Source of the DNA: a virus
UHGV virus genome: UHGV-0291998
Direction: 5' to 3' (one strand)
Length of the DNA: 12,507 nucleotides
Shown here: positions 8,046-8,722 of the stretch, one piece after another
Numbering within the stretch: position 1 is the first letter of the stretch
Layout: each line of letters starts with the position of its first letter
Made by a program: the position numbers and the translations under genes
Notes under the pieces: generated by a model
Databases searched by the model: none
What the model was told of the DNA's origin: nothing
The model's input: the letters and a program-made list of their open reading frames with translations, nothing else

Positions 8046-8144
8046 ATGAAAAACAGAAGTGCTTATAAAACCGCATTATTAATGGCTAATGCAGGATACT
8101 GGTCAGTTGCAATACTGTTTCTCAGGAAAGCATACGGGAAATAA
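8046..8144 (+). CDS. Candidate small hydrophobic peptide / leader ORF (32 aa), below the ORF-track cutoff
   Basis: ATG at 8046 preceded by GGTGGTGA. Translation MKNRSAYKTALLMANAGYWSVAILFLRKAYGK has a ~17-residue hydrophobic core flanked by basic residues. Stop TAA at 8142..8144, 3 nt before the next gene. Confidence 0.3.
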   Translation: MKNRSAYKTALLMANAGYWSVAILFLRKAYGK

Positions 8145-8147
8145 CAA

Positions 8148-8507
8148 ATGACACATGAACCCATTAATACATATCGTCGCCGTATAGCTGTTGCGGCACT
8201 CCATCGAATAAAACGTAAAACAGGTGGTAATCTGCTTATTGTTGACCTTCCTGATGGGAACATTACGACCATAGAAATAACTGAACAGTTTATAAACCAG
8301 TTGCTGTTACGCTTCGAAGGTATTACCCGTGGTGAATTGGGCCGGGTGGAGGGTGAAACCGAAATCCACACTGCATACCAGAATGCTATCGGGATTAATC
8401 AACATACTGAATACCTGACTGAAACCGGAAAGTTAATTATAGACAACCTTTTTCAAGAGATTATTGATTACGCGAAAGAAAAATATATCAGCGGAGGAAT
8501 TAACTGA
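8148..8507 (+). CDS. Hypothetical protein (119 aa)
   Basis: Track ORF MTHEPINTYRRRIAVAALHRIKRKTGGNLLIVDLPDGNITTIEITEQF... No family recognised. The region looks AT-rich. Confidence 0.55.
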   Translation: MTHEPINTYRRRIAVAALHRIKRKTGGNLLIVDLPDGNITTIEITEQFINQLLLRFEGITRGELGRVEGETEIHTAYQNAIGINQHTEYLTETGKLIIDNLFQEIIDYAKEKYISGGIN

Positions 8508-8722
8508 TGGCTAATTTATCCCCTGTATCTGTTGTGCACGAAAAAGTGCAGATCGTTATGACAATTGAAAATGGCCAAGTCACAGGTGTCTGCAAAGTCC
8601 GCGATGGCGAGCTGATTGCCAGCATGGATACATTCATACGGCTGGCAGAAAGAGCGGGGTATCAGATAACAGCACCTGCTCAGGAGGAAACCGGTGGCAT
8701 TAACAGCAACACGCATTCCTGA
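8507..8722 (+). CDS. Hypothetical protein (71 aa), translationally coupled to the upstream 119-aa gene
   Basis: The ATG overlaps the upstream TGA by 1 nt (cTGATGg). GGAGG at 8492..8496. MANLSPVSVVHEKVQIVMTIENGQVTGVCKVRDGELIASMDTFIRLAERAGYQI... Confidence 0.5.
   Translation: MANLSPVSVVHEKVQIVMTIENGQVTGVCKVRDGELIASMDTFIRLAERAGYQITAPAQEETGGINSNTHS

What the first reader, a model, noticed from the sequence alone, without database searches (positions are those of the whole stretch)
8046..8722. Coupled 119-aa/71-aa gene pair of unknown function, preceded by a 32-aa hydrophobic leader-like ORF
Two ORFs with a 1-nt stop/start overlap (TGATG) and a GGAGG RBS for the second suggest a two-component unit. 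The first protein is basic at its N-terminus (...YRRRIAVAALHRIKRK...), the second is a small, probably beta-rich protein. Immediately upstream, an unannotated 32-aa ORF with an SD encodes a TM-like peptide ending 3 nt before the pair. Small membrane peptide plus coupled pair is reminiscent of toxin-antitoxin or abortive-infection cargo, but I recognise no family.
Basis: inference. Interest (0 to 1): 0.6.

Follow-up and report, generated by a model that had tools for sequence, protein, structure and literature searches.

The report
Coupled small-gene chain in prophage early operon

Summary
The coordinates and the sequence features are correct. The 32-aa ORF (8046-8144), the 119-aa ORF (8148-8507) and the 71-aa ORF (8507-8722, TGATG overlap, GGAGG upstream) are all under purifying selection.

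The unit is drawn too narrowly. The three genes belong to a stop/start-coupled chain, 32aa-119aa-71aa-72aa-130aa. It lies in the early-left operon of a Fels-1/phiP27-like lambdoid E. coli prophage, which appears to be repressor-controlled.

- **72-aa ORF (8694-8912):** it overlaps the 71-aa gene by 29 nt and matches Pfam ParE_like (E=3e-17).
- **32-aa ORF:** a conserved small protein (52 distinct peptides across about ten genera, dN/dS 0.19). It is not TM-like as a family. It sits upstream of every 119-aa homologue examined (68/68) and abuts whichever gene comes next.
- **71-aa protein:** a stand-alone copy of a roughly 45-aa domain that otherwise forms the C-terminus of Rha and Bro-N phage regulators. 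It is a facultative cassette that travels with the ParE-like gene.
- **119-aa protein:** a confidently predicted fold with no structural or sequence relative of known function.

No defence-system or toxin-antitoxin family matches the 119/71 pair. A toxin-antitoxin-like relation between the 71-aa (or 119-aa) protein and the ParE-like protein remains possible but unproven. ParE_like homologues also sit, without these partners, next to replication genes in an ICE backbone and before a Toprim primase.

The parts
7094..7122 (+). Promoter-like site (TTGACA-17-TATTAT, 11 of 12 matches), the likely start of the early-left operon that carries the chain. It is flanked and overlapped by operator-like CGATAAAC / CGGTAAAC repeats (7083-7090, 7109-7116). 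The same motif also lies in the cI/cro intergenic region (6297-6304).
   Evidence: A terminator-like hairpin at 7047-7064 closes the cI-like gene. The operator reading is an inference from the repeated motif.
8046..8144 (+). 32-aa conserved small-protein gene. Family pattern: M[TS]FIKDK.AY[KR]TA.L.A..G....IA.L[YF]L[RK]KAYG[RKY]; length 32-38 aa; pI 10.4. It opens the chain, and its stop lies 3 nt before the next start.
   Evidence: There are 52 distinct peptides, dN/dS is 0.19, the ORF is present in 68/68 of the 119-anchored loci, and 4 of 20 members hit phrog_2180.
8148..8507 (+). 119-aa protein (phrog_1737), pI 5.8. It has a basic N-terminal helix (YRRRIAxAALxRxKRKTGG) and an invariant IN.HTEYLTETGK.I.D motif. 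The predicted alpha/beta fold is new.
   Evidence: (pLDDT 91.7, pTM 0.83).
8493..8504 (+). Junction motif GGAGGAATTAAC. It encodes the ...GGIN tail of the 119-aa protein and supplies the Shine-Dalgarno sequence of the 71-aa gene. It is repeated as GGTGGCATTAAC at 8693-8704, at the end of the 71-aa gene, so the two copies bracket the 71-aa cassette.
   Evidence: These are the only two matches in the window. 20 of 200 shuffles give at least 2 matches, so the motif is suggestive only when read together with the comparative data.
8507..8722 (+). 71-aa protein (phrog_340), pI 5.1. Residues 14-55 are a stand-alone copy of the C-terminal domain of Rha and Bro-N regulators (beta-hairpin plus helix). 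Residues 56-71 are a low-confidence tail encoded in the overlap with the next gene.
8694..8912 (+). 72-aa ParE_like protein (PF24732, phrog_1525), pI 11.3. It has a GTG start, AGGAGG 6 nt upstream, and a 29-nt overlap with the 71-aa gene. Invariant residues are G37, L41, R46, W47, R48, L50, S51, G55, W58 and H63.
8909..9301 (+). 130-aa very basic protein (phrog_1886, pI 11.0). Its start overlaps the ParE_like stop (ATGA). It is the last link of the coupled chain and is present in about half of the relatives.

Best explanation
The 119/71 'pair' is not an autonomous system. It is the middle of a five-gene chain of small genes (32aa, 119aa, 71aa, ParE-like 72aa, 130aa) whose stops and starts abut or overlap. 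The chain lies in the early-left (PL-type) operon of a Fels-1/phiP27-like lambdoid prophage. The genes are therefore made together, by ribosomes passing from one ORF to the next, early after induction or infection rather than in the lysogen.

The chain is a cassette array, and its membership is shown by comparison:
- The 32-38 aa small protein always opens it and is coupled to whatever gene comes next.
- The 119-aa protein is the constant large member.
- The slot after it is empty, or is filled by one or two members of the 71-aa family.
- Whichever gene precedes the ParE-like gene is fused into a conserved 28-29 nt overlap with it.

The proposed mechanism is inferred:
- The 71-aa protein is a solo version of the partner-binding or dimerising C-terminal domain of Rha/Bro-N regulators.
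- It most likely works by binding a partner protein.
- The best candidate partner is the basic ParE-like protein encoded immediately after it.
- The resulting small complex would regulate or modulate early lytic development.

The 119-aa protein and the small protein are separate early accessory proteins of a new kind with no assignable activity.
For: **Context.**
- The window carries a cI-like HTH+S24 repressor, a cro-like gene, a helicase, a Toprim primase and a Q antiterminator.
- The same locus in E. coli E110019 runs on to an integrase.
- A terminator is followed by a strong promoter-like site flanked by repeated operator-like motifs.

**Coupling.**
- The intergenic distances along the chain are 3 nt, -1 nt, -29 nt and -4 nt.
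- All members are under purifying selection.

**Cassette behaviour.**
- In 68 distinct 119-anchored viral loci, the small ORF was found in 68, the 71-family in 45 and ParE-like in 44. ParE-like never occurred without the 71-family.
- In 41 ParE-anchored genome loci, the 119-family was found in 23 and the 71-family in 15.
- Fifteen loci carry the small ORF plus the 119-aa gene with none of the others.
- phiP27 and Klebsiella prophages carry the small ORF plus the 71-family without a close 119-aa homologue.
- The tail ...GGINSNTHS is found on whichever gene precedes ParE-like.

**The 71-aa domain.**
- A profile search found it at the C-terminus of Phage_pRha proteins (P0243, P0268, P0285) and Bro-N proteins (P0261, P0271).
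- It also occurs as a tandem duplicate in single chains (P0241, P0250, P0270, P0277).
- Identity is 50-53% over 40 aa.

**Charge.** The acidic 71-aa and 119-aa proteins contrast with the very basic ParE-like protein.
Against: - No activity is demonstrated for any member.
- The 71-aa model is weak (pTM 0.32). No complex could be predicted.
- Binding of the 71-aa protein to the ParE-like protein is inferred only from adjacency and co-occurrence, much of it among closely related E. coli prophages.
- The 71-family also occurs without ParE-like (Fels-1, phiP27), and ParE-like occurs without it (8 phage loci).
- The simple scan found one weak promoter-like match (9 of 12) at 8148-8177, inside the start of the 119-aa gene, but it cannot settle whether the chain has an internal promoter. 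Expression restricted to the lytic phase is therefore an inference.
Confidence: 0.55

Rival explanations
1. A type II (possibly three-component) toxin-antitoxin-like module. The basic 72-aa ParE/RelE-fold protein is a growth-inhibiting toxin. It is neutralised by the acidic protein encoded just upstream: the 71-aa protein where it is present, otherwise the 119-aa protein. The first reader sensed a toxin-antitoxin unit but drew it one gene too far to the left.
For: - The 72-aa ORF matches Pfam ParE_like at 62.7 bits against a cutoff of 24.4.
- RefSeq names it 'ParE family toxin-like', and JGI calls one homologue a 'plasmid maintenance system killer protein'.
- The gene order is an upstream small acidic protein with a disordered tail, a 28-29 nt overlap, then a downstream basic protein of pI 11.3.
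- Within this phage lineage, ParE-like is never found without a 119-family gene upstream (23 of 23). It is found without a 71-family gene in only 8 of about 70 loci. The upstream genes, by contrast, do occur without it. This is the asymmetry expected of a toxin and its antidote.
- R46, R48 and H63 are invariant and Y66 nearly so. By my reading, not tested here, these sit where RelE/YoeB-type toxins carry catalytic residues.
Against: - ParE_like homologues (38-42% identity) are backbone genes elsewhere and lack any of these partners. One context is ParB-DUF2857-ParE_like-STY4528 replication protein, in an ICE backbone. Another is Rv2179c-like exonuclease-ParE_like-Toprim primase. A further, truncated match (48% identity over 46 residues, L046) precedes a Dam methylase. 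That argues against an obligately toxic family.
- At 72 aa with a single N-terminal helix, the protein is shorter than canonical ParE or RelE. It has no HMM match to the ParE_toxin, HigB, YoeB or Gp49 families, nor to any PDB sequence.
- The genes lie inside an operon that appears to be repressor-controlled, and the only internal promoter-like match is weak.
- The 71-aa domain has an independent life as the C-terminal domain of Rha/Bro-N proteins that are not followed by ParE-like.
- Much of the co-occurrence may reflect shared ancestry.
Confidence: 0.22
2. Host-takeover or anti-defence early genes. The small protein, the 119-aa protein and the 71-aa protein each act separately on a host target or a host defence system. 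This would parallel Ral, Gam, Kil and cIII in the lambda PL operon. Their tight coupling would reflect only co-expression.
For: - They lie between the repressor and the integrase in the early-left operon, the classical home of such genes (general knowledge of lambdoid phages).
- The cassette-like presence and absence of members is typical of accessory genes.
- The neighbouring genes are accessory: a 62-aa membrane protein that PHROGs files under 'moron, auxiliary metabolic gene and host takeover', an SPFH lipoprotein and an ORF6N protein.
- The 119-aa protein has a compact, strongly conserved surface motif and a new fold.
Against: - There is no similarity to any known anti-defence or host-takeover protein in Pfam, PHROGs, NCBIfam, PADLOC, PDB or BFVD.
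- The perfect linkage between the small ORF and the 119-aa gene, and the conserved 71/ParE-like overlap, suggest functional coupling rather than independent effectors.
Confidence: 0.15
3. One reading: a hydrophobic membrane leader peptide plus a two-gene 119/71 toxin-antitoxin or abortive-infection unit.
For: - The 119-aa and 71-aa genes are tightly coupled.
- In this window the peptide has an 18-residue uncharged stretch.
Against: - None of 50 family peptides reaches the TM hydropathy threshold, and most carry charged residues in the centre.
- The peptide precedes other genes in 27 of 66 contexts.
- The 119-aa gene occurs without the 71-family in 23 of 68 loci, and the 71-family occurs without a close 119-aa homologue in phiP27 and Klebsiella loci.
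- There is no hit to a defence-system or toxin-antitoxin family.
Confidence: 0.04

Closest known systems
C-terminal domain of Phage_pRha (PF09669) and Bro-N (PF02498) phage regulators or antirepressor-type proteins
   Same: Residues 14-55 of the 71-aa protein align with the C-terminal 40-45 residues of such proteins at 50-53% identity. PHROGs also gives a weak hit to positions 198-238 of an 'anti-repressor' family. Two-domain architectures of this type (N-terminal DNA-binding domain plus variable C-terminal domain) are described for antirepressors in PMC2701414.
   Different: The 71-aa protein lacks the N-terminal Rha or Bro-N domain altogether. The function of this C-terminal domain is itself unknown, and it is not the Pfam ANT or KilA-C domain (no Pfam hit on it in the local copy). 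It shows no similarity to the ORF6N protein encoded in the same window.
RelE/ParE-superfamily type II toxin-antitoxin modules (ParDE, HigBA, YoeB-YefM)
   Same: The neighbouring 72-aa ORF belongs to Pfam ParE_like. The layout is a small acidic upstream protein overlapping a small basic downstream protein.
   Different: The 119-aa and 71-aa proteins match no antitoxin family. The ParE_like protein is shorter than canonical toxins and matches none of them directly. The family also occurs as a backbone gene next to replication genes, without a conserved partner. The only internal promoter-like match is weak.
Accessory gene cassettes of lambdoid early-left (PL) operons (lambda ea/ral/kil/cIII region; Fels-1 STM0898.x, phiP27 L06-L08)
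   Same: The position between repressor and integrase is the same. The genes are small, overlapping and mosaically exchanged. Direct homologues lie in the same order in Fels-1, phiP27, phi467, Cronobacter ENT39118 and Stx-converting phages.
   Different: None of the proteins is homologous to the characterised lambda genes. In all of those records they are annotated as hypothetical, or not annotated at all.
phrog_2180, phrog_1737, phrog_340, phrog_1525 and phrog_1886 (PHROG families of unknown function)
   Same: The five chain members match these families with E-values from 2e-5 to 3e-59.
   Different: These are sequence clusters without a function. They do not record the linkage or the domain relationship described here.

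Membership tests
Type II toxin-antitoxin system (RelE/ParE superfamily) | One partner has a recognisable toxin fold or family | tested here: not met
   For the reported 119/71 pair there is no Pfam, NCBIfam, PADLOC or PDB match to any toxin. Only the adjacent 72-aa ORF matches ParE_like.
Type II toxin-antitoxin system (RelE/ParE superfamily) | Adjacent, usually overlapping small genes with antitoxin and toxin co-transcribed | tested here: met
   The 119/71 overlap is 1 nt and the 71/ParE-like overlap is 29 nt.
Type II toxin-antitoxin system (RelE/ParE superfamily) | The toxin gene does not occur without its cognate antitoxin gene | tested here: inconclusive
   Within this phage lineage, ParE-like always has a 119-family gene upstream (23 of 23) and usually a 71-family gene. 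However, 18 of 41 ParE_like loci in other elements have neither.
Type II toxin-antitoxin system (RelE/ParE superfamily) | Own autoregulated promoter; expression in the carrier cell | tested here: inconclusive
   Within 7964-8722 the consensus scan finds only a weak 9-of-12 match at 8148-8177. The nearest strong site is the PL-like promoter at 7094-7122. A consensus scan cannot exclude weak promoters.
Type II toxin-antitoxin system (RelE/ParE superfamily) | Toxicity of one partner and neutralisation by the other | not testable with these tools
   This needs inducible expression assays.
Known anti-phage defence or abortive-infection systems (PADLOC-DB) | Match to a model of a known or candidate defence protein | tested here: not met
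   There are no hits for the 32-aa, 71-aa, 72-aa or 130-aa ORFs. The 119-aa ORF gives only a chance-level hit (E=0.02, 12.6 bits).
Rha / Bro-N family phage regulators | N-terminal Phage_pRha or Bro-N DNA-binding domain | tested here: not met
   The 71-aa protein has no such domain; it consists of the C-terminal domain only.
Rha / Bro-N family phage regulators | Shared C-terminal domain of about 45 aa | tested here: met
   Profile hits fall on the C-termini of P0243, P0268 and P0285 (pRha) and of P0261 and P0271 (Bro-N), with E-values from 1.5e-10 to 3e-4. BLASTP gives 50-53% identity over 40 aa.
Small membrane peptides (type I toxins, holin-like or leader membrane peptides) | A hydrophobic transmembrane segment conserved in the family | tested here: not met
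   The highest 19-residue Kyte-Doolittle mean is 1.42, and none of 50 peptides reaches 1.6. Charged residues lie in the centre of most members.
Regulatory leader peptide (attenuation or translational-coupling uORF) | The peptide sequence is itself not under protein-level selection, and it is tied to one regulated gene | tested here: not met
   dN/dS is 0.19 with a conserved motif along the whole length. The downstream gene differs among relatives. Tight coupling to the next start (65 of 66 contexts within -11 to +3 nt) is nonetheless present.
TPR/Sel1-like helical hairpin (considered for the 32-aa peptide) | Match to a TPR-type profile | tested here: not met
   Zero Pfam families at E<=10 for 20 family members, and no PDB profile hit. 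The resemblance is only my reading of the pattern.

The most novel reading that the evidence does not exclude
The chain encodes a previously undescribed multi-component module built around a minimal 72-aa RelE/ParE-fold protein.

- A conserved 32-38 aa micro-protein and a new-fold 119-aa protein always travel together.
- A solo Rha/Bro C-terminal domain acts as the dedicated binding partner (antidote or adaptor) of the ParE-like protein.
- ParE_like homologues sit directly before replication-initiator or primase genes in an ICE backbone and before a Toprim primase. The ParE-like protein may therefore be a regulator of mobile-element replication or early development, not a classical toxin.

That would make this a repurposed toxin fold with new partner families.
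Probability: 0.15. Interest if true: 0.7.

Novelty: new member of a known kind. Interest (0 to 1): 0.4.

Why it matters
The result replaces a mis-delimited toxin-antitoxin guess with a defined, testable gene chain. Its members recur in lambdoid prophages and phages of Escherichia, Klebsiella, Salmonella, Citrobacter, Enterobacter, Cronobacter, Erwinia and Pantoea, including Stx-converting phages, phiP27 and Fels-1.

It adds three concrete items:
- A conserved micro-protein that is missing from the RefSeq annotation examined here and from many of the phage records that encode it.
- The recognition that phrog_340 proteins are stand-alone copies of the C-terminal domain of Rha/Bro-N regulators. 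That gives a handle on a domain whose role in those regulators is itself unknown.
- The observation that the Pfam ParE_like family is a recurrent small gene beside replication genes in several kinds of mobile element.

If the 71-aa/ParE-like partnership proves real, it would define a new antidote or adaptor family for a RelE/ParE-fold protein.

Tried and rejected
- **Family scans.** Pfam, NCBIfam, PADLOC and PDB-sequence searches of the 32-aa, 119-aa and 71-aa proteins and their family profiles gave nothing above chance.
- **Fold searches.**
  - The afdb50 library was not available.
- **TPR-like hairpin for the small peptide.** No profile support.
- **TM helix for the small peptide.** Rejected on family hydropathy.
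- **119-aa protein as a lambda-N-like arginine-rich antiterminator.** Rejected on inference. It is predicted to be well folded (pLDDT 91.7), whereas N is disordered. It is not the first gene after the promoter. The scan found no terminator-like hairpin in the 82-nt gap at 7964-8045. I did not fold the gap or search it for a nut site.
- **71-aa domain against the window's own ORF6N protein.** No relation.
- **Hits of the 71-aa profile to MucBP, cadherin and VWA giant proteins.** Treated as spurious beta-hairpin or repeat matches.
- **Genomic context of a Rha-CTD fusion protein (L132).** It lies in a rightward early operon before a 328-aa ORF that I read as a replication-type protein (not scanned), with no ParE-like gene. 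This was uninformative about mechanism.
- **Literature.** Searches for PF24732, PF27490, the RefSeq accessions and the PHROG ids returned nothing.
- **The GGNGGNATTAAC junction repeat.** On its own it is not significant (20 of 200 shuffles).
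Full report
**Observation**

- The 32-aa ORF is 8046-8144 (ATG start). GGTGGTGAT lies just upstream, and the ORF stops 3 nt before the next start.
- The 119-aa ORF is 8148-8507.
- The 71-aa ORF is 8507-8722. Its ATG shares a base with the preceding TGA, and GGAGGA lies 9 nt upstream.

RefSeq annotates the 119-aa and 71-aa genes as hypothetical proteins in a 99.8%-identical E. coli prophage. It leaves the 32-aa ORF unannotated. All three evolve as coding sequence: median dN/dS is 0.20 (119 aa), 0.35 (71 aa) and 0.19 (32 aa).

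**Context**

The window is the immunity and early region of a lambdoid prophage. It was found in 131 of 5426 complete E. coli genomes, and phage phi467 is 83% identical.
- On the minus strand lie a cro-like gene, a DEAD-box helicase, a Toprim primase and a Q antiterminator.
- On the plus strand, a cI-like HTH+S24 repressor (6336-7028) is closed by a terminator-like hairpin (7047-7064).
- A strong promoter-like site follows (7094-7122, TTGACA-17-TATTAT). CGATAAAC/CGGTAAAC repeats flank and overlap it, and the same motif recurs in the cI/cro intergenic region.

From that promoter the plus strand runs through:
1. an HTH gene, a 74-aa gene and a 63-aa gene;
2. an 82-nt gap;
3. the 32-aa, 119-aa and 71-aa ORFs, a 72-aa ORF and a 130-aa ORF;
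4. a membrane-protein/SPFH-lipoprotein pair and an ORF6N protein.

In the same locus of E. coli E110019 this gene order continues to an integrase. I read this as the PL-type early-left operon, switched off by the repressor in the lysogen. That reading is an inference from layout and motifs. Inside the chain the scan found only a weak promoter-like match (9 of 12) at 8148-8177.

A 72-aa ORF (8694-8912) has a GTG start with AGGAGG 6 nt upstream. It overlaps the end of the 71-aa gene by 29 nt, and the 130-aa ORF in turn overlaps it by 4 nt.
- It matches Pfam ParE_like (PF24732) at E=3.3e-17, 62.7 bits against a cutoff of 24.4. RefSeq calls it 'ParE family toxin-like protein'.
- Its family is spread through Enterobacterales. 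G37, L41, R46, W47, R48, L50, S51, G55, W58 and H63 are invariant, and dN/dS is 0.20.

The coupled unit is therefore a five-gene chain, not a pair with a leader.

**The 32-aa ORF**

tblastn finds it in Escherichia, Klebsiella, Citrobacter, Salmonella (Fels-1), Cronobacter (ENT39118), Enterobacter, Kosakonia, Erwinia and Pantoea prophages. It is also in phiP27 and many Stx-converting phages.
- I collected 52 distinct peptides of 32-38 aa. The shared pattern is M[TS]FIKDK.AY[KR]TA.L.A..G....IA.L[YF]L[RK]KAYG[RKY].
- Pooled pN is 0.285 against pS 0.725. The third codon position varies about twice as much as the first two.
This is a real small-protein gene.
- It is not a membrane peptide as a family. 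The best 19-residue Kyte-Doolittle mean is 1.42, none of 50 peptides reaches 1.6, and most carry E, R, H or N in the centre.
- It is not a leader dedicated to the 119/71 pair. In 65 of 66 distinct contexts its stop lies within -11 to +3 nt of the next start. That next gene is 119-like in 37 contexts and a different small gene in 27.
- It accompanies all 68 distinct 119-anchored viral loci.
- Four of 20 members hit phrog_2180, a family of unknown function. Nothing hits in Pfam, including the TPR profiles I suspected.

**The 119-aa protein**

The family is confined to Enterobacterales and carries no functional annotation; one source calls a member a 'Fels-1 prophage-like protein'.
- It has a basic N-terminal helix (YRRRIAxAALxRxKRKTGG; 7 K+R against 1 D+E in residues 1-27). 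The remainder is acidic, with an almost invariant IN.HTEYLTETGK.I.D segment.
- AlphaFold2 gives a confident model (pLDDT 91.7, pTM 0.83). It consists of four long helices and two beta-hairpins.
- I cannot assign an activity to it.

**The 71-aa protein**

The immediate family is narrow (Escherichia, Klebsiella, Raoultella). The model is weak (pLDDT 72, pTM 0.32): a beta-hairpin at 15-31, a helix at 40-49 and an unstructured tail.

A profile search of 1.84 billion representative proteins was informative.
- The core of about 45 aa is [FT]GR[IV]..h.ENG.V....h..dE.hAS.DTFhEhAERAGY.V.
- It forms the C-terminal domain of proteins whose N-terminus is Phage_pRha (P0243, P0268, P0285) or Bro-N (P0261, P0271).
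- It occurs twice in tandem in single chains (P0241, P0250, P0270, P0277).
- Pairwise identity to the window protein is 50-53% over 40 residues. PHROGs had hinted at this with a weak match to the C-terminal part of an 'anti-repressor' family.

The 71-aa protein is therefore a stand-alone copy of a Rha/Bro-N C-terminal domain. Two facts point, by inference, to a dimerising or partner-binding module: it is attached to different DNA-binding heads, and it occurs as an internal duplicate.

**Linkage**

Two sets of loci were compared.

| Set | Distinct loci | Small ORF | 119-family | 71-family | ParE-like |
|---|---|---|---|---|---|
| 119-anchored viral contigs | 68 | 68 | 68 (anchor) | 45 | 44 |
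| ParE_like-anchored genome contigs | 41 | 22 | 23 | 15 | 41 (anchor) |

- In the viral set, ParE-like never occurs without the 71-family.
- Fifteen loci carry the small ORF plus the 119-aa gene followed by quite different genes.
- In the genome set, 18 of the 41 loci have none of the three upstream genes.
- Fels-1 has the 71-family without ParE-like.
- phiP27 and Klebsiella prophages have the small ORF followed by the 71-family, with no close 119-aa homologue.
- Whichever gene precedes ParE-like ends in ...G[GT][ID][NS][SD][NT][TN][HN]S and overlaps its start by 28 nt.
- In the window, GGNGGNATTAAC occurs only at the ends of the 119-aa and 71-aa genes, so the two copies bracket the 71-aa cassette.

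The robust couplings are therefore small ORF to next gene, and 71-family to ParE-like. The 119-to-71 coupling is not one of them.

**Is it a toxin-antitoxin system?**

For:
- The 71/ParE-like couple has the classical outline: a small acidic upstream protein (pI 5.1) with a floppy tail, overlapping frames, and a small very basic RelE/ParE-fold protein downstream (pI 11.3).
- Within this phage lineage ParE-like is never without a 119-family gene upstream.

Against:
- ParE_like homologues of 38-42% identity are backbone genes in other elements, without these partners.
  - One lies between DUF2857 and the STY4528-family replication protein, just downstream of a PFGI-1-type ParB.
  - One lies between an Rv2179c-like exonuclease and a Toprim primase.
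  - A further, truncated match (48% identity over 46 residues, L046) lies before a Dam methylase.
- The protein is short and matches no canonical toxin family or solved structure.
- The chain appears to be silent in the lysogen.

I therefore rate the toxin-antitoxin reading at about 0.2. I prefer a reading in which the chain encodes early accessory or regulatory proteins, with the 71-aa domain acting as the binding partner of the ParE-like protein. A host-takeover or anti-defence role for the individual proteins cannot be excluded.

**Verdict**

It is wrong on the unit, on the membrane character of the peptide and on the toxin-antitoxin/Abi assignment for the pair. These are new members of the familiar class of mosaic early-operon accessory genes. 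Three points are worth following up experimentally: the unannotated micro-protein, the solo Rha/Bro C-terminal domain, and the minimal ParE-like protein that recurs beside replication genes.

Noticed in passing
window 8694-8912 (+): A 72-aa ORF overlaps the 3' end of the 71-aa gene by 29 nt and matches Pfam ParE_like (E=3e-17). Homologues in other elements sit directly upstream of replication genes. One context is ParB-DUF2857-ParE_like-STY4528 replication protein, in an ICE backbone. The other is Rv2179c-like exonuclease-ParE_like-Toprim primase.
   Followed up: yes
window 645-817 (-): Rfam match to the gammaproteobacterial sRNA STnc100 (108 bits, gathering score 47), downstream of the Q antiterminator gene.
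   Followed up: no
window 9362-9550 and 9547-10374 (+): A 62-aa hydrophobic protein (phrog_1130, GRAVY 1.08) overlaps by ATGA an SPFH/Band-7 lipoprotein (phrog_200) that gives weak HflK/HflC-like hits. The same pair is present in phiP27. It may act at the membrane or on the FtsH protease; this was not examined.
   Followed up: no
window 7047-7122 and 6284-6304: A terminator-like hairpin after the cI-like gene is followed by a near-consensus promoter. The promoter is flanked and overlapped by CGATAAAC/CGGTAAAC repeats. The same motif forms a palindrome (TTATCGGaaagCCGATAA) in the cI/cro intergenic region. These are probably repressor operators.
   Followed up: partly
window 5929-6267 (-): The cro-position gene matches Pfam 'YdaS_toxin' (E=1.6e-14), a label that RefSeq renders simply as 'transcriptional regulator'. 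The same family sits in the cro position in the Klebsiella relatives.
   Followed up: no
L114 2014-2400, L107 1773-2165, L051 2609-2995: In several relatives the small ORF overlaps (ATGA) an upstream 128-130 aa protein. This protein consists only of an S24 peptidase (LexA/UmuD-like) domain without an HTH. In Cronobacter phage ENT39118 it is annotated as 'CI-like repressor'.
   Followed up: partly
window 8909-9301 (+): A 130-aa very basic protein (pI 11.0, phrog_1886) overlaps the ParE_like stop by ATGA. It has a conserved HQRTIRRLRR.IARK motif and is present in about half of the related loci.
   Followed up: partly
L018 about 2600-3030: One Enterobacter prophage carries two different members of the 71-aa family in tandem between the 119-like gene and the ParE-like gene. 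Separate proteins from the representative search (P0241, P0250, P0270, P0277) carry two copies of the domain in one chain.
   Followed up: partly
L003 3471-3680, L050 3102-3311, L107 2272-2496: A further facultative cassette of 69-74 aa (MW[HN]P..., no Pfam hit for the one member scanned, L003) is inserted between the small ORF and the 119-like gene in many relatives. It too is translationally coupled on both sides.
   Followed up: no
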